From contig VMEW01000007.1 of assembly GCA_007375735.1 (NCBI GenBank), positions 1,494 to 65,493 on the forward strand: a DNA stretch of 64,000 nt, written 5' to 3'. Positions 6,312-41,272 of the stretch are shown here, piece by piece. Origin of the DNA: Candidatus Peregrinibacteria bacterium Greene0416_19. Lineage in GTDB: Bacteria; Patescibacteriota; Gracilibacteria; Peribacterales; Peribacteraceae. Below the pieces are notes generated by a model. The model worked only from the letters and a program-made list of their open reading frames with translations. It ran no database searches and had not been told where the DNA came from. Numbering within the stretch: position 1 is the first letter of the stretch; each line of letters opens with the position of its first letter. A program made the position numbers and the translations under genes.

Positions 6312-7175
6312 TTATGAATCGGAATCGAGCAGCACATCGATCACTGTCTTGAAGCTTGCGAACGGTACTGCACCGGAAATTATGCGGTTTTCGTCGGTCT
6401 TCAGATTCACGACGATGTTCCCCGGCGTGCCATTCACTCCGGCGGCACTGCCGCCAGTCATGTCATCCTGTACATGCTTCGCGTACTTGCCGCTGTCGAG
6501 ACAATTCTTGAATTGCGCTTCGTCGAGGCCGAGTTCTTTTGCGAGGGGCGCGAGATTCTCGAGCGGGAATCCCGTGCCACCGGCGACGGTCCGCTCGAAG
6601 ATGGCATCCGTGTATTTCCAGAATGCGTCGTTGCCGCCAAACTCATTTGCGCACTCGGATGCCTCGGCTTCCTTCTGGGCGTTCGCGTGGAAGCTCAAAG
6701 GGAAGTGGCGGTAGACCCAGACAACATCGTCCTTATAGGCATCCATGATCTGCTTCATCGTCGGATGATGCCGCTGGCAGAACGGGCACTCGAAGTCCGA
6801 ATATTCGACGACGGCAACCTTTGCCTTCGTGAAGTCTCCACGGATGTGATCAATCTTTGCACTGATCGGAGGAAGATTGTCTGTCGATGTCGGCTCAGGA
6901 GGTTGTTGGGGAGCCGGTGCTGCCGGGGCTTGAGCGACTTGGGCGGGAGGACTCCCTGCAGATGTGGGAAAGTTTCCCGTGCGCCACTTGCCGATTCCGA
7001 AGCCGACGATCAGTCCCATCAAGCCGAGAGAGACTGTGAACCATGGATTCGACCCGTTCGATGAACTCAGGTCAAGCTGGCTCACCACAGGTGGATTGTT
7101 GGCCGAGGAAGGGATCGATGATCGCTGAGAGCTTCCAGCGTTTTTCTGCGGCGTGTCTTGCCATTGGATTGCCAT
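6312..7175 (-). CDS. DsbA-family thiol:disulfide oxidoreductase, membrane-anchored
   Basis: N-terminal TM segment (WFTVSLGLMGLIVGFGIG), a Pro/Ala linker, and a thioredoxin fold with the active site SDFECPFCQRHHP. Confidence 0.85.
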   Translation of the reverse strand: MAIQWQDTPQKNAGSSQRSSIPSSANNPPVVSQLDLSSSNGSNPWFTVSLGLMGLIVGFGIGKWRTGNFPTSAGSPPAQVAQAPAAPAPQQPPEPTSTDNLPPISAKIDHIRGDFTKAKVAVVEYSDFECPFCQRHHPTMKQIMDAYKDDVVWVYRHFPLSFHANAQKEAEASECANEFGGNDAFWKYTDAIFERTVAGGTGFPLENLAPLAKELGLDEAQFKNCLDSGKYAKHVQDDMTGGSAAGVNGTPGNIVVNLKTDENRIISGAVPFASFKTVIDVLLDSDS

Positions 7176-23492: not shown

Positions 23493-23608
23493 GAAGGGAG
23501 TATAGGAGCAAGCTTTGGCTTGGGCTAGGCAAACTGGGTGCCGCCGTCTTTCTAAATCCGCCGCACCCCGGAAGGGTGCTGCTGCGGTAAAATGATTTCT
23601 ATTGATCT

Positions 23609-23632: not shown

Positions 23633-23635
23633 CAC

Positions 23636-25063: not shown

Positions 25064-25156
25064 CGTGTCGTCGCCTCTCCCGATGCATGCAGCCGCAATC
25101 TCTCGCCCGCGCGGTGAGACCGCGGGATGATCCACGAGCAGCCGGGCGCGGTGGGT

Positions 25157-25282
25157 GGCCCCCACCCCCTGACCCCCTCCCCCGAGGGGAGAGGGGGGAC
25201 TGGATTCAATATATTCACTGTTCAATAAGTGATCTCGCTCCCCCTCCCCCGTCGGGGGAGGGGGCTGGAGGGTAGGGGCTGG
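25157..25282. repeat. Gene-less pair of G/C-tract termini related to the inverted repeats of the DUF559 element
   Basis: GCCCCCACCCCCTGACCCCCTCCCCCGAGGGGAGAGGGGGG, about 40 bp of AT-rich spacer, then CTCCCCCTCCCCCGTCGGGGGAGGGGGCTGGAGGGTAGGGGCTGG. Compare 59210-59273 and 59655-59720. Confidence 0.6.
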
Positions 25283-25310
25283 TACCTGTAAAGAATGAGG
25301 AGGCACAATC

Positions 25311-25757: not shown

Positions 25758-25775
25758 GTCCCCAGCATACCTCTT

Positions 25776-26246
25776 TCATTCGTCGTCTAATAAGGCGTTT
25801 CCGAACCGTTTGCGGATGGCCGGGGGCAGGTCGTCCCACTGCACCCGACGGCCCGGATGCCCGGCGTTCTCCTGCAGCGCACGCAGAGCATCATCCAAAT
25901 TCCGTTCCAGGGATTCCTCCAGCCGCTCCTCCCTCTGTCGCCGCTCTTCGTGCTGGCGGGTTATTTCTTCCAGGTAGAAGCGATTGCGTTCGAGTTCGCG
26001 ACCGGCGCGCTCGCCGCAGCCGTTGTTCAGCCGGCAGAGCCTTTCGACCTGATCCGCCACCGCCCTGCTCCACGGGCGGACCGACTGCTCGTCGCGGTTG
26101 GGAGCTTGTGCAGGAGGCGTCAGCAGCACGCGAGTGGTCCAAGGGAGGTGGAGCTTGAAAAGATCGGGCATAGCCTCCGCCACGGCCTTGTGCCAGCCGC
26201 GGCGTCCGATGGCATCGGGATCGAGCGATGGGCGTTGGCGGTTCAT
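25776..26246 (-). CDS. Hypothetical protein (156 aa), Arg/Glu-rich C-terminal helix
   Basis: This is the C-terminal part of track ORF 25776-26903, starting at MNRQRPS. The upstream part of that ORF is a shadow frame over tsaC. Confidence 0.45.
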   Translation of the reverse strand: MNRQRPSLDPDAIGRRGWHKAVAEAMPDLFKLHLPWTTRVLLTPPAQAPNRDEQSVRPWSRAVADQVERLCRLNNGCGERAGRELERNRFYLEEITRQHEERRQREERLEESLERNLDDALRALQENAGHPGRRVQWDDLPPAIRKRFGNALLDDE

Positions 26247-26362
26247 GATGGAATCCGGGGAAGTGGGCAGTCTTGTACCAGAGGGACGGAGAAAAACAAT
26301 GGTCCCCGCGACGCGAGGGCCGGTGGGGGCTTCCCCCTCTGCGCCGAAAAGGGGAACCAGCC

Positions 26363-27007
26363 TCAGGGAGCCACATGCAGCGGCCCGCTCCGCAGGGTCT
26401 GCGGGCTCCCGCCGGATAGATCGACCACCGTCGACGGAGGGGTTCCGGGGAGGGGCCCGCTGTCGATGATCAGATCCGGCTGCAGCCGGCGTCCGTCGAA
26501 TTGCCGCACCACCTCCTCCGTGCTGTAGGGGTTCGGCTGGCCGTGCAGGTTGGCGGACGTGGTGCTGAGCGGACGGCCGTAGCTGTTGATGAGCTCTTGG
26601 GCCAGCGGGTGGGAGGAGATGCGCACGCCGATCGTGCGCCGTTCCGCGTGGTGGGGGGCCCGGCTCTCGGGAGGAGGGACATTGGTGAAGAGCGTGTGGG
26701 GGGCACCGGTGGTTTTCAGCGGGAGGATGATGGTGAGAGGGCCGGGCAGGTGTTTGGCGGCCAGGACGTCCGCTTCCGCTGTCCACTCCGTGTACTGCCT
26801 GGCTTGCCCCACGGAGGAGAAGAGCCCGCTCACAGGTTGCAGCAGGTGACGCTCCTTTACCAGAAACAGCCGGGCCACCGCATCCGGGTTCGCGAGATCG
26901 CACGCGAGTCCGTAGCAGGTCTCCGTGGCATGCGCGACGATGCCTCCGCGGCGCAGGATCCTGATGGCCTCCTGGATGGCTTCAGCCGAAGCGGGAAGGA
27001 TGTGCAT
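26363..27007 (-). CDS. tsaC: L-threonylcarbamoyladenylate synthase (YrdC/Sua5/TsaC family)
   Basis: GGIVAHATETCYGLACD, KERHLLQPVS, PGPLTIILP and STSANLHGQP motifs. Confidence 0.9.
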   Translation of the reverse strand: MHILPASAEAIQEAIRILRRGGIVAHATETCYGLACDLANPDAVARLFLVKERHLLQPVSGLFSSVGQARQYTEWTAEADVLAAKHLPGPLTIILPLKTTGAPHTLFTNVPPPESRAPHHAERRTIGVRISSHPLAQELINSYGRPLSTTSANLHGQPNPYSTEEVVRQFDGRRLQPDLIIDSGPLPGTPPSTVVDLSGGSPQTLRSGPLHVAP

Positions 27008-27024
27008 GGCGGGAGTGTATACCT

Positions 27025-30000: not shown

Positions 30001-30819
30001 GTCGGCGATGACGCGGGTATTGTCGAGCGCCTCCGGCACGTGCGCGAACACGTGTTCCATCTCTTCGAATGGCCGCATGGCATAATCGCTGTCGCGCATG
30101 GAGAAGCGGCCGGGGTCGGAGACCTGGGCATTCTTCTGGATGCAGAGGAGCACGTCGTGCGCCTCGGCGTCCTCCGGCCGGCAGTAGTGACTGTAGGCGG
30201 TCGCGACCACCGGCACCCCCAACTGCTTCCCCCAGTGGATGAGCTGCTGGTTCACTTCGGCTTGTCCCGCGACTCCGGGCAGGTCGATCAATTCGAAGTA
30301 GAGGTTTTCTTTTCCGACAAACGATCGATATTCCTCAGTCAGCTCCGCAATGCGCTTGCCGTCCTCCGCCAGCGCCGCTTGCGGGATGGCTCCGCTCAGC
30401 GGTCCCGTGAGCGCAATGAGGCCCTTGCCGTACTGGCTCAAGAGCTCCGTATCCACGCGCGGCTTGTAGTACATTCCTTCGAGTGCGGATCTCGTCGCCA
30501 GCTGCAGCAGGTTCTCGTAGCCCTCCTGCGTCTCGGCGAGGAGCGTGAGCGGGAAGCGTTTGGTGTCGATGCCGCTCTCCTTATCCATACGCGTGCGCGC
30601 CGCGATGTATACATCCATCCCCAAGACCGGCTTGATACCTTTTTTCGACGCCTCCTGGTGGAACTCGATCAGGCCGTGCGTGTAGCCCTTGTCGGCAAGA
30701 CCCACCGCCGTCTGTCCCAGCTCCGCCGCCCGCGCCACGATCTCCGCCGGGCTCGGGAGGGCTTCTAATAAGGAGTAGGTCGAATGGCAGTGGAGGTGAA
30801 CAAAATCAGCTGCTTTCAT
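27025..30819 (-). CDS. dnaE: DNA polymerase III alpha subunit
   Basis: PHP N-terminus FVHLHCHSTYSLLEA, polymerase core (GRGSAAGS, PDCDIDF), an OB domain, and a C-terminal extension carrying an SSESSDSSDSSDS insert. Confidence 0.95.
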   Translation of the reverse strand: MKAADFVHLHCHSTYSLLEALPSPAEIVARAAELGQTAVGLADKGYTHGLIEFHQEASKKGIKPVLGMDVYIAARTRMDKESGIDTKRFPLTLLAETQEGYENLLQLATRSALEGMYYKPRVDTELLSQYGKGLIALTGPLSGAIPQAALAEDGKRIAELTEEYRSFVGKENLYFELIDLPGVAGQAEVNQQLIHWGKQLGVPVVATAYSHYCRPEDAEAHDVLLCIQKNAQVSDPGRFSMRDSDYAMRPFEEMEHVFAHVPEALDNTRVIADRVRTAFEFGKYQIPRFPVPGGGSEDAHLTELCEKGFADRYPKASPVHRKRLQYELGVIRQVGFSGYFLIVADFVNEAKRRGITVGPGRGSAAGSMVSYCLRITDIDPIPHGLLFERFLNPERITMPDCDIDFADTRRDEVLEYVREKYGRDHVVQICTFGTLAARAAVKDVGRAYGVPFLEMNQLAKLIPERPGTKLKDALEESEELRAMFGSNDTYGRIVETALKLEGKARHVSVHACGVIISEKPAVKYTALQRAPKDENTVITQYAAKPLEALGLLKVDFLGLTNLTVIQTTLEIIERLYGEKIDLHTAPVDDRETFTLLQHGDTTGVFQLESTGMRRYLKQLKPTEFGDITAMVALYRPGPMDWIPSYIKRKHGQEQVEYTHEDLRLILEPTYGIGLYQEQILQIARLFAGFTLGEADILRRAIGKKIVKELRAQREKFVSGAKAKGYKEELAKRIFDDVITPFAGYGFNKSHAAGYARIAFETAYLKAHYPTEFMAALLSSDAQRTDRVMIEIEECRAMGIAVLPPDINESLRHFTAIPPPDVGAKKKTRAAPKGSIRFGLTAIKGIGESSVQQLIDARMQAGPFTSLEDFARRIPGKVLNKKTLEALAKSGALDSLGERNIIVQHYDRIAEFSKASGNAGAAQTDIFASLGSGAEAARIELPVTPPATPMEKLAWEKETLGLYVSSHPLAGLRKYIGKKARLVSGLSTKDVGKTVTVAGLPEMVKKLTTKKGEAMGIVTLEDPTGKIEVTFFPRTYALLAPLLEKPDTVLVVGGTLDLRGGQLQVRADAAKRASLTTMIEKAKTEGFFDEEEAKRGIALGRREEEEETIELVDEEGNVIAGETVILQKEEQGDEFLGPLGKWILGGMRLAEPLAFLGWENNGDPHEQKIPMNPKRNDRSSESSDSSDSSDSLSTKISIHTIDLPPRAPKQLLLDLKKAFESFPGHERVQLRIGAQVIPVPMTVSMSTVLENKIEEMLGRYEVKSL
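27241..27320. repeat. 9-nt-periodic palindromic repeat (NGANTCCGA units), copy inside dnaE
   Basis: GGAATCCGA GGAGTCCGA AGAATCCGA TGATTCCGA, then the inverted units TCGGATTCA TCGGAATC. Same family as 30878-31023 and 46851-46930. Confidence 0.7.
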
Positions 30820-30877
30820 TGGTGGGGGTGGAGGCTTGCCCGGCGTAGCCCCCGCAGGGGCGGAGTCGGGTGGACGA

Positions 30878-31023
30878 AGTCCTCGGAGCGCATGCTTCTA
30901 CTATAGAGAAGTCCTCTAGAGAGGAAACCGAAGAAACCGACGATTCCGAGGATTCCTGTTTTTCCTTCGCGCGAAGCGCGATCGTCGGACTCCTCGGTTT
31001 CCTCGGACTCTTCGGACTCCTCA
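30878..31023. repeat. 9-nt-periodic palindromic repeat, intergenic copy (dnaE upstream / operon 3' end)
   Basis: GAGGAAACCGA AGAAACCGA CGATTCCGA GGATTCC ... ATCGTCGGACTCC TCGGTTTCC TCGGACTCT TCGGACTCC. The arms are mutually complementary. Confidence 0.7.
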
Positions 31024-32619
31024 CCGTATCCCCGCCCCCGCCTTGCACTTCTGCCACCGCGGGTTTGCGGGATCGGTATCGGAGACGAACGTGCCTTTCG
31101 CGTAGGGGAAACACTCGTCCGTCGTGATGATCCGCATGACCTGTTCCAGGCGCTTGTTGCACGGGCGGAAGATGCAGGAACGTCGGAGGAAATAGGCGAA
31201 GTCCCGCACGAAGCCGCGGAGCGTCCGCTCCCCTCCGGGTTGGCCGAGCGTCGTCCCGACGGTCACGAGCCGCCCCACGGCTTGGCTCAGGTTGGAGAAG
31301 GCGGCGCGCCCGACCAAGCTCGGATCGGTACCGGCCGCGATAGTCATGCTCTCTTTCTGCGCCTGCTGCGTTTCGAACTCGCGCACGCCGGTCGCAGCCT
31401 GTCCGCCCATCAGCCGGTAGAGCCAGCTGCCGTCCAGCTGGAAGGAGCGCGGCGCCGTGCCGCGTGCGCCGAAGCTCCGGCGCAGGTCCACGTACTGTCG
31501 CAGCAGCCGCTCCTCGTCCCGCTCCAGCGAGAACGGCCCGCGCAGTTCGTACGCCAGCGCCCCCTCCAGCTTCTGGCAGACGTTCTGTCCTCCGCAGTCA
31601 GCATCGGCCCCGCACGTGATGTTGAAGTCGTTCGAACATGTCCCAACCTCCGAGGACGCGACGCAGCGTCCTATCTGCAACCTCGAACACACGGCATCGC
31701 TGTTGCAGGGAGTCATGGCATCGCCGGTGCACGCGCCGTCCAGGATGCACATGGTCCGTCGCCGGTGCTTGCGGGTGACATCCGGAGGAACCGGCGTCTG
31801 CAGCGTCCCGTTAGTCTGGAACGGCATCGACTGCATCGCCCGGTCGAACTGCGCCGTGTAGGACTGGTAGCGCCCGGCGGCGATGATGGCGCTGATGATG
31901 CCAGCGCGCTGCTGGGAGATGGCGTCCCGCAGCCACTGTCCGTCCGGATGGGTGCGGATGCGGCTCATGGCCCTGTTGAGCCCGTCCAGGTCGCACCCGT
32001 AGCCGGAGAGGCCCGGCGGCAGGTAGTTGGAATCGAACGCGCAGAACGAGACGAGCGGGTCCAGGACGAAGCGCGGATCATCGAACGGGCGTCGCACGTT
32101 CCACGAGCTGTCGATGGACGTGGGATCGCGGGCGCCCTGCAAAAGGATCTTGTAACGTTCATTCAGGAACTGCAGCAGCTGGGAGAGCAGATTGACGCTG
32201 GCAACCTTCCGCGCGTCCACGGCTCGCGTCATGGCATCCGCCACGCGCTTCATTTCCCCTTCGAGCAGGAACAGGTCGGTGCGCAGGCAGGCCGAGTTGT
32301 CCGTCAGGGACCGCCCCTGCGCCACGATCTGCCTCGTGACGTCCGTTTGCGCCGCAATCGCCGCCACCACGTTCCGCTGCCAGTGGAGCCTGTCGAAGCC
32401 GGCCGCAGGGGTCGGTGGGAATGAGGATCCCGTCGTGTACGTCCTGGCGGCCCTCGACCGGTTGAGGACGAAGTCCACGTAGTTGGATGGCTCCGCCGCC
32501 GCCGCTAACCGGATGTGCACCGTCAGACTCAGGATGATGGTGAGCATGCTGCTGCAGAGCAGTCGCGACGCGCGACGTCTGCGGATCGGTGCCAGTGAGG
32601 GTGAGTGGCGCATGATCAT
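31021..32619 (-). CDS. Secreted Cys-rich protein E of the five-gene operon (532 aa); function unknown
   Basis: Start MIMRHSPS overlaps the upstream stop as ATGA. Signal peptide ...TVHIRLAAAAEP. A Cys cluster is present (CILDGACTGDAMTPCNSDAVCSRLQIGRCV...CSNDFNITCGADADCGGQNVC). Confidence 0.75.
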   Translation of the reverse strand: MIMRHSPSLAPIRRRRASRLLCSSMLTIILSLTVHIRLAAAAEPSNYVDFVLNRSRAARTYTTGSSFPPTPAAGFDRLHWQRNVVAAIAAQTDVTRQIVAQGRSLTDNSACLRTDLFLLEGEMKRVADAMTRAVDARKVASVNLLSQLLQFLNERYKILLQGARDPTSIDSSWNVRRPFDDPRFVLDPLVSFCAFDSNYLPPGLSGYGCDLDGLNRAMSRIRTHPDGQWLRDAISQQRAGIISAIIAAGRYQSYTAQFDRAMQSMPFQTNGTLQTPVPPDVTRKHRRRTMCILDGACTGDAMTPCNSDAVCSRLQIGRCVASSEVGTCSNDFNITCGADADCGGQNVCQKLEGALAYELRGPFSLERDEERLLRQYVDLRRSFGARGTAPRSFQLDGSWLYRLMGGQAATGVREFETQQAQKESMTIAAGTDPSLVGRAAFSNLSQAVGRLVTVGTTLGQPGGERTLRGFVRDFAYFLRRSCIFRPCNKRLEQVMRIITTDECFPYAKGTFVSDTDPANPRWQKCKAGAGIR

Positions 32620-35258
32620 GGCGTCACATTGGGGAACCAGCCGCTGCTCTGGCTCTGTCCCGGGGCCTGCAACTCGCTGGCATTGAGGGGGCACATGGTA
32701 CGGGAGAAGTCGACGTTCGCGACGCTCTGGAGCATGGCGGTTGCGGCGTTCACCACTTCCGTGAGTGCCTGAGCGCTCCGCTGCAGGTACGGGCCGTACA
32801 GCGCGGTCCCGATCCGCATGCCGAGCGCGTCGCTCATCCGCTCGATCCCCGTCGCGGGCACGATGAGCTGCTGTTGCGAGAGCGACAGGCTGCGCACGAT
32901 CTGCAGTATTTCCTTCCCGCCTCCCAGGAGCGCCCCCTTCGCGATGAACCCGCAGGCCGCAGGCGGGGTCTGCGGCGGCAGACCGTTGAGCTGGCACAGG
33001 GCGATATCCATCTGCTGCAGCAGCTGCGCCGGTCGGTAGGGCGGGAAGTTCGCGAGCGGTGCGGAGGGCGAGGCGACAGGTGTGAACATCTCCGGATACT
33101 TGTTGCCGCCGGCGTCGAAGGGGAACGCCTGGTCCTGCACCGTGAAGCCGTTGCGCCCGGGCATCAGGCGGTGGTTCTCCAGCGATTCCTCCAGGCAGCG
33201 GTCCAGGTAGCAGAGGTTGTTGCCGATGGTGTTTTCATACGACGTGACGCGCAGGGGATCGCAGACCTCCCGTCCGATTTGGCTGATCTGCTGCAACTGC
33301 GATCGGATGAAGGGATCCTGGATGCGGTGGAGGTTGTCGCCCGTCCGGAATACTTTCCCGCCGATCGTTTCCTGGCAGGTGAGCGGACGCCGGAGAGGAT
33401 TGGTTTTGGCGGCTGCTCCGATGGCGTTCACGAATAGCGCCACCACCTCCCGTTGTTTTGTGAAGCTGAAGCTCTCCGGGCACGCGCCGAATTTTTCCGC
33501 GCGGCATTCCGCATCGGTCGCTGCCTGGGCGCAGGTTTCCACGTTCATAGGGATGCCGCCCGGGCCCAGTGTTTCCTGTCCTCCGGGACGCAAGACACCA
33601 TCCTCATCCATCGCCTGACACTGGGTACGGTTTCCTTCATACTCCATCCGGCAGCATTCGGAGAGCTTGAATTCATTATCGTTGCTTGCAGTGTAGTTCG
33701 TTCCCGGTGGCAGGTCGCAGAGCTGCCGCGCATGGACGAGTTCGTGACGGATCAGATAGGACGGCGGCGAGCCGCCGGTATTTTCCTTGATGGAGATCGA
33801 GATGATCCCTTTTGTGGTTTTCGGGTGCGTTTTCGCGTCAAATTTGATGTCGGGTGAATTGTCGCACTTGATTTCCACGTCGCAGTGCCTGGCTGGATCG
33901 AACCGCTGCGGTGACAGCGACCATGACGTCTCCACGCACGCATCCGGTCCGGTCGATGTCCGCCGCTCGGGCACGTTCTCCGTGCAGGAGGCGATGTTGA
34001 TGGTGTTCGACTGCAGACGGACCTGCTCCTTGCAGATCGCCGCTTCGCGCGTCTGCAGCGGCCGGCACAGGTAGCCTTGGCGATGGATGGGATGCTCGCA
34101 GACGGCCCAATGTTCGGGCGGCAGTGGCGGGTAGAGACCGCCCGCGATCGGCTGGCAGCGGTTCTGGGTGGGCTGCGCGTCTTCCGGCACGCCCTGTCCG
34201 CACAACGACGGCAGCACCGGCTCCACCGCGTACTGCCACGCGAACCCGGCATTCAGGAAGAGCGGGTCGGCGCCGCGTGGCACGAGTGCGTGCGGCCAGC
34301 GCTCGGCGCGGATCCACAGGAGGACGTTTCCGGGCATGAGCTCCTGGTAGGATGGCGGAATGATCCACTGCACCACCTGTCGTTCTCCCATGGCGAAGGT
34401 GAGCCGCGACACCTGCCGCGCCGTCTCCGCCAGATCCAGCAGCATCGCTTCCATCTGGCAGTTCCGTTTCTCCGTCCAGTAGAGCTCGGAGCCGGGCCTG
34501 GGCGGCAGGGCCTGCGCGCACGGCTGCGACAGCAGGGCGTACCCGGAGCGGTACCGCCACACAGTGCCGGTGAATTCCTCCACGTTCTTTTCCTTCTGCG
34601 CAGACGTGACGACACTGGTGAGGATTGTCCCGCTCAGCGCCTTCCCCAGGGTTGTGATTTTCTGCCGCAGCTCCGGCGTCTCCGGCAGCGGGATCGCCCG
34701 CAGCACCGCGCCGCTCCCCGCGACCGTCACTGCGCCGGAGCCGGCGCGCCAGAGGTGGGTGATGCTCTGCACCTGCAAGATCATGGCGCCGGACACGTCG
34801 GTGTCGAGGGGCCGCTCGTAGCTGTCGGCGATCGCCTGCAGGTCGCGCCCGAGCGCGCGCACCTTCTCCTCCCGGCGGGCGAGCATCAGGATGTCTTGCG
34901 CCAGCTGGTTGCATTTCCCCAGCCCCTGCGCTGGGCGGTGGGTCTTGCCGGCGCAGAAGACACCCCGCAGTTCCGGTCGCAGGGCCTGATCCACCTCGAA
35001 GCGGTACACGATCTGCCGCAGCCGCGGCGCGCTTGCCACCGCGGAAAGGAAGCGCTTGAGCGGGGCTTCCACAGTGTGCTGAAAGGTGCGGTTCAGGAAC
35101 GCTTCACGTTCCGTCGTCGTCAGCATCAGGTCGTAGAGATTCGGGGCAGCCCCGCGCGCGCTTGCGCGCCGCGGGGCCGGCACCGCGCTGAGCGCGGTGG
35201 CCACGATGAGCATGACGATTATCTTCACCAGCCTGTGTTGACGGATGGTGACGATCAT
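32616..35258 (-). CDS. Secreted Cys-rich protein D (880 aa) with a single HExxH motif; function unknown
   Basis: Start MIVTIRQHRLVKIIVMLIVATALSAV overlaps the upstream stop as ATGA. HELVH lies at nt 33746..33732. There are more than 30 Cys. Confidence 0.75.
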   Translation of the reverse strand: MIVTIRQHRLVKIIVMLIVATALSAVPAPRRASARGAAPNLYDLMLTTTEREAFLNRTFQHTVEAPLKRFLSAVASAPRLRQIVYRFEVDQALRPELRGVFCAGKTHRPAQGLGKCNQLAQDILMLARREEKVRALGRDLQAIADSYERPLDTDVSGAMILQVQSITHLWRAGSGAVTVAGSGAVLRAIPLPETPELRQKITTLGKALSGTILTSVVTSAQKEKNVEEFTGTVWRYRSGYALLSQPCAQALPPRPGSELYWTEKRNCQMEAMLLDLAETARQVSRLTFAMGERQVVQWIIPPSYQELMPGNVLLWIRAERWPHALVPRGADPLFLNAGFAWQYAVEPVLPSLCGQGVPEDAQPTQNRCQPIAGGLYPPLPPEHWAVCEHPIHRQGYLCRPLQTREAAICKEQVRLQSNTINIASCTENVPERRTSTGPDACVETSWSLSPQRFDPARHCDVEIKCDNSPDIKFDAKTHPKTTKGIISISIKENTGGSPPSYLIRHELVHARQLCDLPPGTNYTASNDNEFKLSECCRMEYEGNRTQCQAMDEDGVLRPGGQETLGPGGIPMNVETCAQAATDAECRAEKFGACPESFSFTKQREVVALFVNAIGAAAKTNPLRRPLTCQETIGGKVFRTGDNLHRIQDPFIRSQLQQISQIGREVCDPLRVTSYENTIGNNLCYLDRCLEESLENHRLMPGRNGFTVQDQAFPFDAGGNKYPEMFTPVASPSAPLANFPPYRPAQLLQQMDIALCQLNGLPPQTPPAACGFIAKGALLGGGKEILQIVRSLSLSQQQLIVPATGIERMSDALGMRIGTALYGPYLQRSAQALTEVVNAATAMLQSVANVDFSRTMCPLNASELQAPGQSQSSGWFPNVTP

Positions 35259-36199
35259 CGGTTGGGCGGTGGATTGCGGAGAGATCCGCGCGCATCCCAG
35301 ATGCGCGGCAGGCAGGCGCTCGTCTCGGCCGCGAGGCCCAGGACGTTGCGGATATCCAGGGACGCACGCTCCAGGCATGCAAGATTCATGCTCAACGGCT
35401 GCAGCCGCTCGGTGCCGGCCAGGAACAGGAGGGTGCGGTGGAGCGCTGCACGCGGGATGGAGAGCTCCTGCTGGATGATCGACGCGCGGCGGATGCCTTC
35501 CCCCGCCAGCCCTGCCCCGGTGAGCGGCGTGAGCGATCCAAAGGCGGTTGCGATGTCGGCGGGGAGGAAGTCGCGCGCTTCCCGCATCGCACATTCGTAC
35601 TCCCGCAGGTACTCCAGAAGCACCGCGCCCATGTCCTGTTCGGTGAGGGCTTGCATGGCTGCCGGCGTCTTCCACGGTTTCAGCTTTGCGGCGAGCGTGC
35701 GGAGGTCCTGTGACGGAGGACTGGTGACGTTGCCGGTGCAGATGGGGGACTGCGGACGGAGATGTGCAGAGACGATGCGCCGCAGATCGTTGTGGTAGGT
35801 CAGCACCCACTGTTCCAGGTTGCCGCCATTCCCGCTGGTGAAGAGCGCCTCGTTCCGCTCGCACTGCCCACCACCGGCAGGAGTGCCGCTTCTTCCGGTG
35901 GAACCACCCGTGGCGCCGCCGGTCGTTCCACCGGCGCTGCCCCCTGTGGTGCCGGTTGTCCCGCCAGTCGTACCCCCAGCCGTTCCACCAGTCGCACCAC
36001 CCGTTCCTCCGCTCGTGCCGCAGATCGGGCAAGTCGCTTGCAGCATCAATCGGTCGCTGCCGTTCCACTGCGCGATGAGCACCGGTGCGGCGGCCAGGAA
36101 CAGGAGTCCCGTCACGGTGACTGCCAGCCGCGAACGCGTGAGCCGGTGCCACGTCGTTCGCGAACGAACATGCCGGTGATTGCTGTGGAGCTTACTCAT
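35255..36199 (-). CDS. Membrane-anchored or secreted protein C (314 aa) with a Gly/Thr low-complexity linker; function unknown
   Basis: Start MSKLHSNHRH overlaps the upstream gene by 8 nt. Contains a TM segment (LAVTVTGLLFLAAAPVLIA) and a 53-aa (G/T/A/S) run bracketed by Cys. Confidence 0.7.
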   Translation of the reverse strand: MSKLHSNHRHVRSRTTWHRLTRSRLAVTVTGLLFLAAAPVLIAQWNGSDRLMLQATCPICGTSGGTGGATGGTAGGTTGGTTGTTGGSAGGTTGGATGGSTGRSGTPAGGGQCERNEALFTSGNGGNLEQWVLTYHNDLRRIVSAHLRPQSPICTGNVTSPPSQDLRTLAAKLKPWKTPAAMQALTEQDMGAVLLEYLREYECAMREARDFLPADIATAFGSLTPLTGAGLAGEGIRRASIIQQELSIPRAALHRTLLFLAGTERLQPLSMNLACLERASLDIRNVLGLAAETSACLPRIWDARGSLRNPPPNR

Positions 36200-37163
36200 T
36201 GCATTCAGCGAGGAAACAAGGGATGCGTGCCAGTTGTCCCACGAGCGGCAGGGCCTGCCGGAGAGGAGTGAGCAGATCGGTGCGGAACGCACCCAGGAAC
36301 ACGTCGGTCATGCCCGCGAACTGGAGGAGCGTCCGGTATGCGGCGTCGTACCCTGTTGCGAGCTTGAGCAGTTCTGCCTCCCGGCCCGCCAGCTCCGCCA
36401 TGGACGCCGGGCAGTAGGTGCGGGCGATCACCTGGTCCGCGGCTGTCGCAAACTGCGTCCCCGCCCCCGGCGGGCCGGCCGTGCTGCCGAGCGCATTCAG
36501 GAAACAGGAGGTGGGGGCGGGAACCCTGGCCGCCACACAGCCGGGCACCGTCACTTCGTAGTACGCGATGCCGCTGATCATCACGATCTGCGGGTCCAGG
36601 CTCTGCGCGCGCTCCGCTGCGATGCAGATGGCGGCCAGCCGGCACTGGAACGCGCGGTACGACTGCGTCAGGTGCGGCACCAGCTCACTCGTCAGCGCGC
36701 CGCGTGTCTCGAAGATGCCGCGTCGCACCGGCGTGGACGTGTTCGCCGCGAACCAGTCGCGCTCGCTGAGGGCGTCCATCCGGCTGTCATTCAGCGCAGT
36801 GCGGCTGAGCCGGGGAACGGCCGTCCGCCACTCGTTGTGGCGCAGCTTGATCCACGGGTTTCTTTGGATGTCGTAGCGTGTGGTGCCGAGCGGTTCATCC
36901 GCCGCGCTATGTATACCGAAGAGGACGCCGCGGTACACGCGCTGTTCCTGGGCAGCCAGATCATTCACTTGCCCGATGCAGGCGCTGGCGGGAATCAGTC
37001 TCTGCGCACGCGCCGTGACTGGAGCGAGTATCAGGGTAAGGGCAAGGGTCAGGGCAAGGGCAAGGGCCGGGGTTCCCCCCTTCGTCAAGCCTTCGGGGGA
37101 CAGGCGGGTTTGGGTGCGGGCTCGAGACATCGGGCCGGTGGTTGCGGAGCGTCGGAGCGTCAT
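36192..37163 (-). CDS. Secreted protein B (323 aa); function unknown
   Basis: Start MTLRRSATTG overlaps the upstream stop as ATGA. Hydrophobic segment ALALALTLALTLILAPVTARA. Several Cys. Confidence 0.7.
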   Translation of the reverse strand: MTLRRSATTGPMSRARTQTRLSPEGLTKGGTPALALALTLALTLILAPVTARAQRLIPASACIGQVNDLAAQEQRVYRGVLFGIHSAADEPLGTTRYDIQRNPWIKLRHNEWRTAVPRLSRTALNDSRMDALSERDWFAANTSTPVRRGIFETRGALTSELVPHLTQSYRAFQCRLAAICIAAERAQSLDPQIVMISGIAYYEVTVPGCVAARVPAPTSCFLNALGSTAGPPGAGTQFATAADQVIARTYCPASMAELAGREAELLKLATGYDAAYRTLLQFAGMTDVFLGAFRTDLLTPLRQALPLVGQLARIPCFLAECNE

Positions 37164-40100
37164 GGCTTGCGCGGAGGGAAGAGGTCCACGGGTCTGGGGA
37201 CGCCGAAGACGGGATACAGCGTCCACGGCGGTGTGACGTACGGCGTCCCGCCGCGGATGGTTCCGTTCGGATTCAGCGTGTACCCTCGCTCCTCGGCTCT
37301 CATCGATTCCACCGGATCGAAGTCGGGATTATTGATGTCGAACGACGGCTGACGGGGTTCCTGCGGGATGGTGATACGGACACCGCCGCGCCCCCCTGTG
37401 CGTTCCCCCTGCAGGGTGATGCAGGCGTGATCGTCGGGCAGACACGTTGCATCTTTTCTGGGAGGCTGTGCGCCCGGCGGCGCGGTCAGGGGAGGAATGA
37501 ACGTTCTGCCGATTCCCTGCGTTTCCTTGTCCTCCTTCAGCAGCACCGCAGGCCGGGCGGTGATGCGCTCGATGCGTTCCATGAGATCCATTTCGACGTG
37601 GACGCAGCTCGCTTGCTGCCATCCGCAACATTCGAGTGGCTGCAGAGCTCTTCCGTTGCACTTGGGCGCGTCCCGCGCCTGCCGGTCCAGGCTCTGCCAG
37701 AACTTCTTGTACGTATCGTTCATGCCGGCGATCATCATCTTGGCGTGTTCCAGCGCACTGCGTGCCTGTGCCGCATTGAACGCCGGCGGGTCGGGCAGAA
37801 CCGGCGGGGATGCGCCGAAAACGACGTTCGGGAGCAGCCGGTCCAATCGGTCCCACTGCACGAGCAGCACATCCGGCAGCGGCGGCAGGGTGGGGAGGGA
37901 GGCAGGGTCCAGGACGGATCCCGGGAGCGGAATCTGCATACGGATCTGGATCGGCTTCAGGACCGGCACCTTCAACGATCCCGACGATACCTTGAGCACC
38001 GACAAATCCCAGATCAGATCCGCTTCTCCGGCTGGCGGGCAGAGCATCGGCAGACGCTTCTGACCGTCCGGCCCGGTAGGGTTACAGGCGGGGCTCAGAT
38101 CCTGCAGGTCCGGCCGCGGTGGGTACCATGGATCGAGCAGGGAGTAGATGGGCGTGGTGAAGCGGTCGTTGCGGCACCACGGCATATTCGTGATGTCGCT
38201 GAACTCGACGAATTGCTTCTGCGCGGAGCGCCAGATGTTCTGAAGCTCCTCACGCTCGCGGAACTGCTTCAGGTGCTTGTCGTACGCGCGGCCGTTCTGC
38301 TCGATCCACGACTGCAGGTACCGCAGCAGATTCTCCTGCCGCATGAGCAGCACCGACAGGTACTTGGCGATTTCCCCGCGCAGACCGTGGTAGCTCTCTA
38401 TCTGCTTCGCGTACTGTTCCAGTGTGTCGATCAGAGAGTCCACCTCCGCTGGTACCGGGAGCCGGGCGGCATCGCGTTTGGACTTCCACTCCTTCCACAA
38501 CGCCGCCGCCGTCCGGAACTCGACCGGTGACCCGGCCGGCACCACCACCGGCACCGGCTCCTCCCGTACCGGAAGGATGAGCGACTGCTTCAGGTAATGC
38601 CCCAGGAGTCCCACCAGATCGTCCTGGGCCGTCAGCTGCACGTCGATCGCTTGCTGCAACGCGGTACCGCTCGCGGGCACGTCGATGAGCGTTGTCTCGA
38701 GCGGCCGGAGGGCATCCAGCCGGTAGCTCCAGCTCACCGGCAACCGCAGGTGCACGAGTGGCGGGGTGAACAGCCGGTGCGCGTCCGTCTCGAACTGCTG
38801 CCACCAGCGCGTGAACGGCCGCAGCTCCCGCCGCGCGTTCGACACGCTGTCATCCACCGATCGCAGTATCGACTGCCGCGCGCGCGGCGCGGTCTGGGTG
38901 TTCTGCGGCACAGCCTGCACGACGGCCTTATCCGGATTCAGCAGCGCCTCACTCAGGTTTCCTTTCCATCCGGGGATGGAGAGGAAGGAGAGAGCGCTGC
39001 CCAGGTTTGGATACCAGGTGTCGGTCGCGGCATTGAAGCGCGGATTCCGCGGCGCCTGGAACAGGTCGATGGGGAGCGGGTTCGGCTTGTAGTGTCCTTT
39101 GCCCGACTGCGTGTTCCGCAAATTCTGCCACTGTACCGGCAGGTCGATGACGCAGCGTTGGTCCTTCGTCTCCGTCTTGCGGCTGCGCGGGTCGAATTCG
39201 TCGTAGAAACCGTAGCAGGCTGCCTGCCCGTTCCTCACGTCACTCAGAGCATCCCGCGGAGCATCGTTGATTTTGCTCCGCGAGGCACTGATATTCTTGT
39301 AGCTGCGGTAGAAGGAGCGGTACGGCTTGTTGTTCTCCGCCGACTTCTTGCAGGTATCGTCGCTTTTGGCGGAGCAGCGGAGCTCCTTTCCCTTCGCATC
39401 GATCAGGCAGTTCTTCTGGCCGGGGCTCCCCACGCGCGGCACGAGCGGATCCACCCACTCGTCGGAGCAGGTCCACCGCTTCGCCCATGTCACGCATTTT
39501 CCATACCATACCTTACCGGTGAGATCGGGAATGGGCGGGCTGAGCGGGACCGCAATGCGGCAATCCTGGTACGTCCACTTGCTGTCGTTCAACCAGCTGC
39601 AGAAGTTTGTGCACTTGCCGAGATTGTGCGGAGGCGTGTCCTTCTGCTGCCGGTCTTTCCACAAGCAGGGCGGGTCCTCGAAGTACGGGTGGGCGATATT
39701 GATTTTTTTATTCTTGGTACCCGGCAGGTCCCCGTCGCTGTACACCCTCTTGTCGATATTCCCTTTCTTCTCTTCGCATACGGTGAGCATTCCTGTCGTG
39801 TGGTTCCACGTGGGGAAGAAAAATCCGTTCCCCGTCTTCCCAGGAGTGTATTGGTCGGTCTCCTGCCTCTTTCCCATGCCGGATCCGGGATTTCCCAGTG
39901 GATCACTCGTGCGGCCGGGTACGCCGCCGGCGCGCGGGATCTTGCCCTGCACCGACTCGCGGGGATCCGTGCTCCAGCCGCCGCACTGGGCTGCATCCAG
40001 TGTCCGCACAATCTGGTTCTGGATGGCGGGGATCTGGCTGACGCTCTGGGTATTCGAGAGCGGCGGGACCTGGAATGCGGCATGTGCGGAGCGCCCGGCG

Positions 40101-40195
40101 AGCAGCCCCGCGGTCATGAGCGATACGGTGAGGAACCGGTGGCGGTGGGGGTATAGGTGTATCAGGGAAGTATAGCATTTTTTTGGCTTCTGCAT
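37160..40195 (-). CDS. Secreted Cys-rich protein A (1011 aa), first gene of the operon; function unknown
   Basis: Signal peptide ...FLTVSLMTAGLLAGRSAHAAF. Lys/Cys/Trp-rich N-terminal half and Pro-rich C-terminal half. No recognisable domain. Confidence 0.8.
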   Translation of the reverse strand: MQKPKKCYTSLIHLYPHRHRFLTVSLMTAGLLAGRSAHAAFQVPPLSNTQSVSQIPAIQNQIVRTLDAAQCGGWSTDPRESVQGKIPRAGGVPGRTSDPLGNPGSGMGKRQETDQYTPGKTGNGFFFPTWNHTTGMLTVCEEKKGNIDKRVYSDGDLPGTKNKKINIAHPYFEDPPCLWKDRQQKDTPPHNLGKCTNFCSWLNDSKWTYQDCRIAVPLSPPIPDLTGKVWYGKCVTWAKRWTCSDEWVDPLVPRVGSPGQKNCLIDAKGKELRCSAKSDDTCKKSAENNKPYRSFYRSYKNISASRSKINDAPRDALSDVRNGQAACYGFYDEFDPRSRKTETKDQRCVIDLPVQWQNLRNTQSGKGHYKPNPLPIDLFQAPRNPRFNAATDTWYPNLGSALSFLSIPGWKGNLSEALLNPDKAVVQAVPQNTQTAPRARQSILRSVDDSVSNARRELRPFTRWWQQFETDAHRLFTPPLVHLRLPVSWSYRLDALRPLETTLIDVPASGTALQQAIDVQLTAQDDLVGLLGHYLKQSLILPVREEPVPVVVPAGSPVEFRTAAALWKEWKSKRDAARLPVPAEVDSLIDTLEQYAKQIESYHGLRGEIAKYLSVLLMRQENLLRYLQSWIEQNGRAYDKHLKQFREREELQNIWRSAQKQFVEFSDITNMPWCRNDRFTTPIYSLLDPWYPPRPDLQDLSPACNPTGPDGQKRLPMLCPPAGEADLIWDLSVLKVSSGSLKVPVLKPIQIRMQIPLPGSVLDPASLPTLPPLPDVLLVQWDRLDRLLPNVVFGASPPVLPDPPAFNAAQARSALEHAKMMIAGMNDTYKKFWQSLDRQARDAPKCNGRALQPLECCGWQQASCVHVEMDLMERIERITARPAVLLKEDKETQGIGRTFIPPLTAPPGAQPPRKDATCLPDDHACITLQGERTGGRGGVRITIPQEPRQPSFDINNPDFDPVESMRAEERGYTLNPNGTIRGGTPYVTPPWTLYPVFGVPRPVDLFPPRKP

Positions 40196-40241
40196 GAGGT
40201 TTTTTTGGCATCTCCACCGGAGGAGAACTTGACATGATAGT

Positions 40242-40269
40242 TTACCGGTTACCGGTTACTTGTTACTGG
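40242..40269. repeat. Tandem heptamer array TTACCGG TTACCGG TTACTTG TTACTGG
   Basis: Read directly from the divergent intergenic region between operon gene A and ssb. Confidence 0.8.
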
Positions 40270-40399
40270 TTATATCACACAATATTTATTACTTTTTGCA
40301 GCACCTTTGCGTTGTATCGTCGGAAATCGGGTGTACAAATGTACACGTTCCCTGCGCGCACCCATCGGGACATCCTCTACTTCCATTCCTCTTCCAGAT

Positions 40400-41272
40400 A
40401 TGTTCTCCTTCAATCGCGTGCACATCATCGGCTACCAGACACAACCAGTTTCCATCAGACAAACGCCCAGCGGCACCAGTGTCACCGATCTCAACTTGGT
40501 CGTGCCCTACCGCTTCCGGGCCGATACGGGCGAGATGCTCGATGGCAAGGGCTTTCACACGGTCACCCTGTGGGGGCCGATGGCGGATATAGCGGGACGC
40601 TTCATTAAACCCGGATCGCAGCTCTTCATTTCCGGCCGCCTCCAGACCGACAGCTGGGAGGATGAGAAGACCGGCGAGAAACGCTCGAAGACCAAGATCG
40701 TCGGGCTCGACATGATCATGCTCGACCCCAAGGACGGCCAGCTCCCCGCTCCGGCCAATGCCCCGTCGCTCACCACCCTCATCAACCGTGCCGATGTGAT
40801 CGGCAACGTCACCCGCGATCCGGAGATGCGCACCACCACCGGCGGCCAGCAAGTCCTCACGCTCGGGGTCGCCACGAACGAACGGTGGAAGGACAAAGCG
40901 TCCAACACCGACCGCGAACGTACCGAGTTCCACAATGTCGTCATCTGGGGAGCGCTCGCGGAGGAAGTCGCCCGTACCATCAAGAAGGGCAACCGCGTCT
41001 TCGTCAGCGGTCGCGTGCAGACGCGTAGCTGGGAGACGAAGGACGGTGCCAAGCGCTACACTACCGAAGTCGTCGCCGACACGGTGTCGTTCCTCGGCAC
41101 CAGGAATCCACTCGTTGATGGCAATATCCAAACGGAGGCGCGCGGTTCCTCCGATGCCAATCAGGACGCTGCATCTGCTCCGATGGCAGCGTCGCAGGAG
41201 CCGGTTCCTTCTGTCGACGTGCCGCAGATCGCGTACGCATCGGAGATCAAGGCTGAGGATTTGCCTTTCTGA
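40400..41272 (+). CDS. ssb: Single-stranded DNA-binding protein with two tandem OB folds (290 aa)
   Basis: Start MFSFNRVHIIGY. OB1 ends ...SGRLQTDSWEDEKTGEKRSKTKIV. OB2 spans ADVIGNVTRDPEMR...SGRVQTRSWETKDGAKRYTTEVV. The acidic tail ends in EDLPF. Confidence 0.9.
   Translation: MFSFNRVHIIGYQTQPVSIRQTPSGTSVTDLNLVVPYRFRADTGEMLDGKGFHTVTLWGPMADIAGRFIKPGSQLFISGRLQTDSWEDEKTGEKRSKTKIVGLDMIMLDPKDGQLPAPANAPSLTTLINRADVIGNVTRDPEMRTTTGGQQVLTLGVATNERWKDKASNTDRERTEFHNVVIWGALAEEVARTIKKGNRVFVSGRVQTRSWETKDGAKRYTTEVVADTVSFLGTRNPLVDGNIQTEARGSSDANQDAASAPMAASQEPVPSVDVPQIAYASEIKAEDLPF

What the first reader, a model, noticed from the sequence alone, without database searches (positions are those of the whole stretch)
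31021..40195. Five translationally coupled genes for large Cys-rich signal-peptide proteins with no recognisable domains: candidate undescribed extracytoplasmic system
Seen in sequence:
- After removing the GC-driven N-terminal extensions in the ORF track, five minus-strand genes remain (1011, 323, 314, 880 and 532 aa), chained by overlaps.
- The overlaps are ATGA at 37160-37163, 8 nt at 36192-36199, ATGA at 35255-35258 and ATGA at 32616-32619.
- Each product begins with a positively charged n-region followed by a hydrophobic h-region (for example ...LMTAGLLAGRSAHA, ...LTLILAPVTARA, ...IRLAAAAEP).
- The products are rich in Cys, often in close pairs or clusters.
- About 3060 aa contain no ATPase, pilin, sortase or transporter motif, and no repeat-family motif such as SLH, FG-GAP or cadherin. 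I recognise only one HExxH.

Established knowledge: 4-nt ATGA overlaps indicate translational coupling and usually stoichiometric complex partners. Multi-Cys secreted proteins need an oxidative folding catalyst, and a DsbA-like gene is present at 6312-7175.

Inference: a multi-subunit, disulfide-stabilised cell-surface or secreted assembly of unknown function (adhesion, host interaction or envelope structure).
Basis: partly seen in the sequence, partly recalled or inferred. Interest (0 to 1): 0.85.

Follow-up and report, generated by a model that had tools for sequence, protein, structure and literature searches.

The report
Peribacteria-specific five-gene exported protein operon
Five tightly chained genes for exported, cysteine-stabilised proteins with no known relatives form an operon kept in the same place in every Peribacteria (CPR) genome examined. 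A protease-like module that moves between two of the proteins suggests they work together as one still-uncharacterised envelope or surface assembly.

Summary
There are five minus-strand genes: A 1011 aa, B 323, C 314, D 880, E 532. Their junctions overlap by 4, 8, 4 and 4 nt, and an independent gene caller gives the same boundaries. All five have signal-peptide-like N-termini and no other membrane segment. Cysteine is 2.7%, against 0.9% in neighbouring housekeeping proteins, and most cysteines are invariant.

The A-B-C-D-E order is kept in all 26 related loci wherever the contig allows, always between ssb and dnaE. Every named genome is a Candidatus Peribacteria/Peregrinibacteria MAG, including Ca. 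Peribacter riflensis, where the genes are annotated "hypothetical".

Pfam, NCBIfam, PHROGs, PADLOC and PDB profile searches gave no significant hit. A fairly confident AlphaFold model of A (pTM 0.70) has no structural neighbour.

The one lead is D's HExxH subdomain. It resembles peptidase M76/Atp23 below threshold. It is degenerate in three lineages and deleted in one. In at least two lineages it sits inside A instead, and in one of those D has lost it.

Best reading: a vertically inherited, Sec-exported, disulfide-stabilised multi-subunit envelope or surface assembly with an accessory zincin-like module that processes or helps assemble it. Function is not proven.

The parts
37160..40195 (-). 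Gene A, 1011 aa. It has a signal peptide and a Cys-rich beta-rich N-terminal region (about residues 70-420) where insertions and deletions concentrate. It also has an 86-residue heptad helix and a conserved C-terminal region.
   Evidence: boundaries. (AF2 pLDDT 78, pTM 0.70). (no Foldseek neighbour in PDB or BFVD). (indels concentrated at residues 150-300). (46 homologues; 261 representative clusters).
38189..38446 (-). A residues 584-669: one long amphipathic helix with heptad periodicity, a candidate stalk or oligomerisation element.
   Evidence: DSSP helix 584-669, pLDDT 86-95. (72% hydrophobic residues at a/d positions in the best register). (coordinates checked).
36192..37163 (-). Gene B, 323 aa. 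It has a signal peptide and 8 invariant Cys. Its ATG overlaps the stop of A (ATGA).
   Evidence: no Pfam or PDB hit.
35255..36199 (-). Gene C, 314 aa. It has an N-terminal hydrophobic segment (signal peptide or anchor) and 5 invariant Cys. It overlaps B by 8 nt.
   Evidence: no Pfam or PDB hit.
35864..36031 (-). Gly/Thr-rich low-complexity linker with a CPIC motif in C (residues 57-112). It is present only in this lineage.
32616..35258 (-). Gene D, 880 aa. It has a signal peptide, a helical N-terminal part, a Cys-rich middle with the HExxH module, and a conserved C-terminal part (YENTIGNNLCY...). About 23 Cys are conserved.
33357..33896 (-). Zincin-like subdomain of D (residues about 455-634). 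HELVH is at residues 505-509 (33732-33746), with a conserved Glu539 downstream (CCxxExEAY).
   Evidence: HExxH is kept in 19 of 22 orthologues, and L004 and L026 lose both the motif and the Glu. Peptidase_M76 hits 6/22 members and DUF6782 5/22, best 20.9 bits against a cut-off of 25.2; this is the only confidently modelled part of D, with three strands followed by the HExxH helix and a second helix; it is deleted in the L028 lineage; it is located in A in L030 and L031.
31021..32619 (-). Gene E, 532 aa. It has a signal peptide and 8 conserved Cys. Its ATG overlaps the stop of D (ATGA).
   Evidence: no consistent Pfam or PDB hit.
31576..31749 (-). Run of nine Cys at 6-9 residue spacing in E (residues 291-348). 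This insert is specific to this lineage.
   Evidence: only weak DUF7107 and WAP noise in Pfam.
40196..40306 (.). AT-rich intergenic region between A and the divergently transcribed ssb. It is the likely promoter region of the operon.
   Evidence: sequence; no promoter-like or terminator-like sites above chance inside the operon.
6312..7175 (-). Membrane-anchored DsbA-like thiol-disulfide oxidoreductase (CPFC). It is a candidate folding catalyst and is not part of the operon.

Best explanation
The five genes are one operon, inherited vertically in the class Peribacteria (CPR). It encodes five unrelated Sec-exported proteins that fold outside the cytoplasm around conserved cysteines and work together as one envelope or surface assembly.

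Proposed roles:
- A is the large projecting subunit. It has a variable Cys-rich head and a long heptad helix that could act as a stalk.
- D is a scaffold subunit. It carries an accessory gluzincin-like (HExxH...E) module that trims or helps assemble the partners, in the way Atp23 both processes and chaperones its client.
- B, C and E are smaller structural subunits.

Shown here: the genes, their coupling, the export-type N-termini, the conserved Cys, co-inheritance, vertical descent, faster evolution than neighbouring genes, and the movement of the module between D and A.

Inferred: disulfide bonding, that all five form one complex, protease activity, and location at the cell surface.
For: - Boundaries and overlaps are confirmed.
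- Junctions are tight or overlapping in independent gene calls of relatives and in Ca. Peribacter riflensis genes 963-967.
- The A-B-C-D-E order and orientation are kept in all 26 related loci wherever the contig allows. The cluster lies downstream of ssb, and dnaE follows it in most loci.
- All 21 genome hits are Peribacteria/Peregrinibacteria MAGs.
- Signal-peptide-like N-termini are present in nearly all orthologues of all five families, and nothing else anchors the proteins.
- Cysteine is three times the local background and mostly invariant.
- Pairwise distances of A-E track DnaE distances (r 0.81-0.86), which indicates vertical inheritance.
- Median identity to orthologues is 28-38%, against 51-70% for neighbouring genes. 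This fits exposed extracytoplasmic proteins.
- The A-D link: D-HMM positions 426-595 hit A of L030 at E=1.3e-32, while the D protein of that locus lacks positions 360-610. A of L031 also carries the module, at a different place.
- The zincin reading: HExxH is kept in 19/22 orthologues, the downstream Glu is invariant among the 16 HExxH-bearing sequences aligned, motif and Glu are lost together in two lineages, and M76 and DUF6782 give sub-threshold hits centred on the motif.
- The local predicted structure is three strands followed by two helices.
- A DsbA-like oxidoreductase is encoded in the window.
Against: - There is no direct evidence that B, C or E bind A or D. The partial distance correlations among A-E (0.48-0.83) are only slightly above those with SSB (0.41-0.56).
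- If all five signal peptides are cleaved, nothing found here would hold the assembly on the cell. No TM segment, lipobox, LPXTG or SLH domain was found.
- The zincin assignment is below Pfam's thresholds, and Foldseek gave no zincin hit, although the D model is poor overall (pLDDT 54).
- The module is degenerate or absent in 4 lineages, so catalysis cannot be the core function.
- Function is not established. CPR genomes hold many conserved hypothetical exported proteins.
Confidence: 0.55

Rival explanations
1. The assembly is specifically an attachment organ. It would be a surface spike or adhesin complex that binds a host or partner cell, in line with the presumed symbiotic lifestyle of Peribacteria.
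For: - The proteins are exported and evolve about twice as fast as neighbouring genes.
- The N-terminal Cys-rich region of A is where insertions and deletions concentrate, with large lineage-specific insertions up to 1836 aa.
- A has a long heptad helix suited to a stalk.
- Published Peribacter genomes are thought to invest in extracellular Cys-rich proteins for attachment (PMC4736985).
Against: - The cluster appears once per locus at a fixed chromosomal position in every relative examined, and no paralogue was found in the window.
- No adhesin-type repeats or known binding domains were found.
- The Ca. P. riflensis orthologues (963-967) are not in that paper's list of Cys-rich proteins. Whether they are among its strain-variable proteins was not checked.
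- No retention signal to the cell was found.
Confidence: 0.2
2. It is an envelope-biogenesis machine that works on peptidoglycan, the S-layer or cell division, rather than an outward-facing structure.
For: - In several genomes the cluster lies in a conserved neighbourhood with murA, lspA, ftsW, murG and murB.
- It is a single-copy core gene set in the lineage.
- A metallopeptidase-like module could act on wall peptides.
Against: - The neighbours also include gltX, ssb, dnaE, nrdR and aspS, so the neighbourhood is generic housekeeping.
- No LysM, SPOR, PG-binding, SLH, penicillin-binding or known hydrolase domain was found.
- The protease-like module is dispensable in some lineages.
Confidence: 0.12
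3. The five products are independent secreted proteins, for example a secreted protease with unrelated exoproteins. They would be co-transcribed without forming a complex.
For: - hhalign found no homology among the five.
- There is no direct interaction evidence.
- The co-evolution signal is weak.
Against: - Order, orientation and overlapping junctions are kept at 25-40% identity across all related loci.
- No locus was found in which the genes occur apart.
- The D module has been relocated into A while D lost it. This is hard to explain unless the two proteins act in one place.
Confidence: 0.1
4. The ORFs are artefacts of GC-rich DNA, or the cluster is a recently acquired mobile or phage element.
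For: - Local GC is 63-68%, against about 57% elsewhere in the window.
- Many long spurious ORFs overlap the region on both strands.
Against: - All five proteins are conserved with invariant Cys in more than 20 species.
- An independent gene caller agrees on the boundaries.
- No relatives were found in viral contigs, PHROGs or PADLOC.
- Distances track those of DnaE.
- The raised GC also covers dnaE and aspS.
Confidence: 0.01

Closest known systems
Peptidase family M76 (Atp23), the mitochondrial intermembrane-space metalloprotease and assembly factor, and the related Pfam family DUF6782
   Same: - An HExxH motif of the same flavour (HELVHAxQ) followed by a conserved acidic residue.
- A cysteine-rich module folded in an oxidising extracytoplasmic compartment. 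Atp23 has ten Cys (PMC4951193).
- Atp23 has two roles, processing and assembly (PMC12315970). This matches a D protein that is kept even where the motif is lost.
- Sub-threshold Pfam hits cover M76 profile positions about 22-114.
   Different: - Scores stay below Pfam's cut-off (best 20.9 against 25.2 bits), and the window protein itself gets no hit.
- The module is about 150-180 aa inside an 880-aa exported protein whose other parts have no relatives.
- No ATP-synthase context.
- No structural confirmation.
Large, very cysteine-rich extracellular proteins of Ca. Peribacter riflensis (Anantharaman et al. 2016, PMC4736985)
   Same: Same bacterial class. The proteins are exported, Cys-enriched and without functional prediction, and were suggested to act at the cell surface.
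   Different: - Those proteins average 7.2% Cys and 1655 aa, and include a 14-gene cluster.
- The five here have 2.2-3.2% Cys.
- Their P. riflensis orthologues (genes 963-967) appear only as 'hypothetical protein' in the genome table and are absent from that paper's Cys-rich list.
Surface assemblies of monoderm bacteria: sortase-built pili, SLH-anchored S-layer proteins, type IV pili
   Same: Several exported subunits encoded in one operon, presumably assembled outside the membrane.
   Different: No sortase or LPXTG, no SLH domain, no prepilin-type leader, and no ATPase or platform protein.
Viral class I fusion glycoproteins (analogy only)
   Same: A disulfide-rich head combined with a very long heptad helix, with proteolytic maturation as a possible step.
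   Different: - No sequence or structural similarity. The only hint was a coiled-coil-level hit to gp41 at E=0.39.
- Foldseek against PDB and BFVD found nothing.
- No membrane anchor and no fusion peptide were identified.

Membership tests
Zincin metallopeptidase, Peptidase_M76/Atp23-like (D residues about 455-634) | HExxH zinc-binding motif on a helix | tested here: met
   HELVH lies at D residues 505-509 inside predicted helix 499-514. The motif is kept in 19 of 22 orthologues.
Zincin metallopeptidase, Peptidase_M76/Atp23-like (D residues about 455-634) | Third metal ligand downstream on the next helix (Glu in gluzincins) | tested here: inconclusive
   A Glu in the CCxxExEAY motif is invariant among HExxH-bearing orthologues. 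It is lost together with HExxH in L004 and L026. It lies in predicted helix 528-552. Its role as a metal ligand is inferred, not shown.
Zincin metallopeptidase, Peptidase_M76/Atp23-like (D residues about 455-634) | Score above Pfam's gathering cut-off for PF09768 or PF20573 | tested here: not met
   The window D gets no hit. Among orthologues, 6/22 hit M76 and 5/22 hit DUF6782, best 20.9 bits against 25.2.
Zincin metallopeptidase, Peptidase_M76/Atp23-like (D residues about 455-634) | Zincin fold confirmed by structure comparison | tested here: inconclusive
   The D model has pLDDT 54 overall and only residues 455-660 are confident. Foldseek against PDB gave no significant match. A PDB profile search with the subdomain found nothing.
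Sec-exported proteins with an SPase I signal peptide | Basic n-region, hydrophobic h-region and small residues at positions -3 and -1 | tested here: met
   A rule-based check found these features in 18/20 A orthologues and in all B, C, D and E orthologues. No other TM-like segment is present. SignalP and DeepTMHMM were not available. C could be an uncleaved anchor.
Sortase-dependent surface proteins and pili | C-terminal LPXTG sorting signal and a sortase gene in the cluster | tested here: not met
   None of the five has an LPXTG-like motif or a C-terminal hydrophobic tail. No sortase domain was found.
SLH-anchored S-layer proteins | SLH domain | tested here: not met
   No SLH hit in Pfam for any of the five proteins or their orthologues.
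Type IV pilus / type II secretion | Prepilin leader, assembly ATPase and platform protein | tested here: not met
   No such domains were found in Pfam or NCBIfam. The N-termini are classical signal peptides.
Published 'very Cys-rich large extracellular proteins' of Ca. Peribacter riflensis | About 7% Cys, about 1655 aa, and listed in Table S4 of PMC4736985 | tested here: not met
   The five have 2.2-3.2% Cys. The orthologous genes 963-967 occur only in the whole-genome table, not in the Cys-rich list.
Phage or defence-system proteins | Match to PHROGs or PADLOC families, or relatives on viral contigs | tested here: not met

The most novel reading that the evidence does not exclude
The operon encodes a previously unknown kind of bacterial cell-surface machine, confined to one CPR class and built from five protein families with new folds. 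It would be the organ by which these ultra-small, presumably symbiotic cells contact or fuse with a partner cell. Its logic would resemble viral spikes: a variable disulfide-locked head, a long heptad stalk, and maturation by a built-in zincin module.
Probability: 0.12. Interest if true: 0.9.

Novelty: categorically new. Interest (0 to 1): 0.62.

Why it matters
Peribacteria, like most CPR bacteria, are uncultured. How they build their envelope and contact other cells is unknown. This operon appears once in each related locus examined, is vertically inherited, and sits at a fixed position among replication and cell-wall genes, so it is probably central to their cell biology.

None of its five proteins resembles anything characterised, and the largest has a confidently predicted fold with no neighbour in PDB. 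The finding supplies:
- a defined set of five families, with alignments of 20-46 orthologues each and about 260 representative clusters for A;
- a catalytic-site hypothesis for D (H505, E506, H509, E539);
- natural experiments: lineages with the module degenerate, deleted, or moved into A.

Together these make the system open to structure prediction, heterologous expression and metaproteomics without a culture.

Tried and rejected
Searches that gave nothing useful:
- Pfam and NCBIfam on the five proteins: only noise (VMAP-M1 E=0.04, CMD E=0.012).
- Pfam on every orthologue of A, B, C and E: no family recurs.
- Pfam on sub-regions, including the 9-Cys insert of E: only weak DUF7107 and WAP noise.
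- PDB profile searches with all five family alignments and the D subdomain: only coiled-coil noise.
- PDB searches with three extra-long A homologues, looking for fused known domains: nothing.
- Foldseek of the A model against PDB and BFVD: no match below E=1.
- Foldseek of the D model: meaningless, because the model is poor.
- PHROGs, PADLOC and a viral-contig scan: nothing.
- Promoter and terminator scan inside the operon: not above chance.
- Literature search: no description of this cluster found.

Ideas tested and dropped:
- Paralogy among the five proteins, tested by hhalign: rejected. Only the signal peptides resemble each other.
- A second protein search with the D alignment found no additional D homologues, because of the candidate cap.
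- Mirror-tree partial correlations as a test of co-evolution: too weak to use.
- The annotation 'putative reductive dehalogenase subunit A' on one A homologue: dismissed as spurious, since no such domain was found.
Full report
**1. What is in the sequence**

The region 31021-40195 carries five minus-strand genes: A 37160-40195 (1011 aa), B 36192-37163 (323 aa), C 35255-36199 (314 aa), D 32616-35258 (880 aa) and E 31021-32619 (532 aa). I checked start codons, stop codons and junctions directly. The junctions are ATGA at 37160-37163, an 8-nt overlap at 36192-36199, ATGA at 35255-35258 and ATGA at 32616-32619.

That contig is ENA ERZ27284380 k139_731739, 230,958 bp.

No promoter-like or terminator-like site above chance lies inside the cluster. 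An AT-rich 111-nt spacer separates A from the divergently transcribed ssb.

**2. Properties of the products**

Each protein begins with a basic stretch followed by a hydrophobic segment. None has a second hydrophobic 19-mer, an LPXTG motif or a C-terminal anchor.

There is a single HExxH, at D residues 505-509.

Cysteine makes up 2.68% of the five proteins, against 0.93% in DnaE, AspRS, SSB, MurB and GltX of the same window. This is less extreme than it sounds. Ca. Peribacter proteomes average 1.67% Cys, and the 'very cysteine-rich' proteins described there average about 7% (PMC4736985).

Pfam, NCBIfam, PHROGs and PADLOC gave nothing significant for the window proteins. hhalign found no relationship among the five families beyond their signal peptides. 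The window holds no paralogues.

**3. Conservation**

A search of 5.8 billion proteins found only 7 relatives of D (27-34% identity) and 46 of A, none with a meaningful name. A profile of A run against 1.84 billion representative proteins found 261 at E<=0.001.

A scan of one genome per species returned 21 loci. All come from MAGs labelled Candidatus Peribacteria, Peribacterales, Peribacteraceae or Peregrinibacteria.

In all 26 related loci fetched up to that point, tblastn finds A, B, C, D and E in that order on one strand. Genes are missing only where the contig ends. The surroundings are also conserved: gltX, murB and a divergent ssb lie upstream, and dnaE, nrdR and aspS usually follow downstream.

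Independent gene calls show the same tight junctions, mostly 4-nt or 8-nt overlaps.

The complete genome of Ca. Peribacter riflensis has the same cluster as genes 963-967 (1030, 279, 263, 821 and 521 aa), with three 4-nt overlaps. All five are annotated 'hypothetical protein'. They are absent from that paper's table of Cys-rich proteins. I found no paper that describes the cluster.

Signal-peptide-like N-termini recur in essentially all orthologues of all five families.

Most cysteines are invariant:
- B: 8 of 8
- C: 5 of 7
- D: about 23 of 27
- E: 8 of 17; the other nine lie in an insert specific to this lineage
- A: at least 17 of 23

Median identity to orthologues is 28-38% for A-E, against 70% for DnaE, 65% for GltX and SSB, 55% for AspRS and 51% for MurB. 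Pairwise distances of A-E follow those of DnaE (r 0.81-0.86).

The set is therefore real and vertically inherited. It evolves about twice as fast as its housekeeping neighbours and is kept as a unit. No relatives occur on viral contigs.

**4. Structure**

An AlphaFold2 model of A built from 46 homologues is fairly confident (mean pLDDT 78, pTM 0.70). From the N-terminus it shows:
- a helix;
- a beta-rich region at about residues 70-420 that holds 13 of the 23 Cys;
- a mixed alpha/beta middle;
- one continuous helix at residues 584-669;
- a mixed C-terminal part.

The long helix has heptad periodicity. Foldseek finds no neighbour in PDB or in BFVD. Insertions and deletions among orthologues concentrate at A residues 150-300, while the rest keeps its length. 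Some homologues carry acidic or Ser-rich insertions of several hundred residues.

The model of D, built from only 8 sequences, is poor (pLDDT 54). The exception is residues about 455-660, where three strands are followed by the HExxH helix and a second long helix. Foldseek on this model is uninformative.

**5. The one recognisable module**

HExxH is kept in 19 of 22 D orthologues. A Glu in a downstream CCxxExEAY motif is invariant among the 16 HExxH-bearing sequences aligned.

Scanning each orthologue against Pfam gives Peptidase_M76 in 6 of 22 and DUF6782 ('putative metallopeptidase') in 5 of 22. The hits are centred on the motif and cover M76 profile positions about 22-114. They always stay below the curated cut-off, best 20.9 against 25.2 bits. 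The window protein itself gets no hit.

I therefore read this as a zincin-like, probably gluzincin-type module, not as an established M76 member.

Several natural variants are informative:
- In L004 and L026, both HExxH and the Glu are replaced. In L001, HExxH is replaced.
- In the divergent L028 lineage, D is 621 aa and lacks exactly this module. A does not carry it either.
- In L030 (GCA_030649955.1), A is 1570 aa and carries the module at residues 234-389 (D-HMM positions 426-595, E=1.3e-32, HELVH at 283). The D protein of the same operon is 693 aa and lacks HMM positions 360-610.
- In L031, A (1214 aa) carries the module at residues 85-224. D is cut off by the contig end there.

Moving a module from one subunit to another within the same operon is Rosetta-stone evidence that A and D act in one place. 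The module's loss in some lineages shows it is accessory to the conserved function.

The known M76 protein Atp23 offers a useful parallel. It is a cysteine-rich protease of an oxidising compartment that both processes and chaperones its client (PMC4951193, PMC12315970).

**6. Most likely mechanism**

The operon is transcribed from the ssb-proximal spacer and translated with coupling. The five products are exported by the Sec pathway and folded around conserved cysteines. The membrane-anchored DsbA-like protein at 6312-7175 (CPFC) may help, although it lies 24 kb away in a copper-handling neighbourhood. The proteins then assemble outside the membrane.

I propose the following roles:
- A is the main projecting subunit, with a variable Cys-rich head and a long heptad helix.
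- D is a scaffold whose zincin-like module trims or helps assemble partners.
- B, C and E are smaller structural subunits.

Steps shown and steps inferred are listed under the best explanation above. I put 0.55 on this reading.

Rivals are a dedicated host-attachment organ (0.2), an envelope-biogenesis machine suggested by the mur/ftsW neighbourhood (0.12), five independent exoproteins (0.1) and an artefact or mobile element (0.01).

One weakness applies to every 'assembly on the cell' reading: nothing found here would hold the proteins on the cell if all five signal peptides are cleaved. C is the best candidate for an uncleaved anchor.

**7. Comparison with known systems, and novelty**

The cluster fails the defining features of:
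- sortase pili;
- SLH-anchored layers;
- type IV pili and type II secretion;
- phage or defence systems;
- the published Peribacter Cys-rich proteins.

For the zincin module, two features are met or plausible and two are not confirmed.

All five families lack characterised relatives, and A has a confidently predicted fold with no structural neighbour. I therefore rate the cluster as lying outside every known kind of system. The caveat is that its function is unknown, and better models of B-E could still reveal a distant analogue.

I set interest at 0.62. A class-wide, syntenic operon of exported proteins with a built-in natural experiment is a good target. However, conserved hypothetical exoproteins are common in CPR genomes, and no culture exists in which to test it.

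Noticed in passing
window 9460-16563 (+), 17000-19672 (+), 20112-21134 (-): There is a 2367-aa ORF rich in Ala, Glu, Lys and Leu, with no signal peptide and no Pfam hit. It is followed by an 890-aa ORF and a 340-aa Glu/Lys/Arg-rich ORF, also without hits. The region has a strong purine skew (AT skew up to 0.30). These look like giant coiled-coil-type proteins of unknown role.
   Followed up: partly
window 1675-8555 (-): A copper and thiol-redox neighbourhood. It holds a P-type ATPase with an HMA domain and pieces of multicopper oxidase in one 1310-aa ORF. Next come the membrane-anchored DsbA-like protein (CPFC) and a DsbD_2 membrane protein fused to HMA and cupredoxin domains.
   Followed up: partly
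window 23636-25354 (-): A gene of 475-572 aa with no Pfam hit lies between nrdR and aspS and carries a CxxxCxxC motif (CPYDCAMC). In the relatives L001 and L003, nrdR and aspS are adjacent, so this gene is an insertion in this genome.
   Followed up: no
window 40307-41272 (+): The ssb gene encodes a tandem protein with two SSB (OB-fold) domains, about 290 aa. It is conserved, and divergent from the operon, in all relatives examined.
   Followed up: no
window 35864-36031 and 31576-31749 (-): Two inserts are specific to this lineage: a Gly/Thr-rich linker with CPIC in C, and a run of nine Cys at 6-9 residue spacing in E. Other lineages carry inserts at other positions in the same proteins.
   Followed up: partly
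L009 8198-9184, L015 7927-8889, L024 11-2005: A short Trp-containing motif of B (FDxxGxxWIK...W) is duplicated in the B proteins of L009 and L015. The B profile (positions 58-105) also hits the D protein of L024 at E=3.8e-5. This may be a second small element shared between subunits.
   Followed up: no
window 22000-40000: GC content is 62-68% across about 18 kb that includes aspS, dnaE and the operon, against about 55-60% in the rest of the window. The rise is not specific to the operon.
   Followed up: no
P0107 (1836 aa A-family homologue): Some A homologues carry insertions of several hundred residues made of Ser-rich and Asp/Glu/Trp-rich repeats (for example DDDGWxDxDxDG). These lie in the N-terminal region and near the C-terminal Cys motif.
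   Followed up: no
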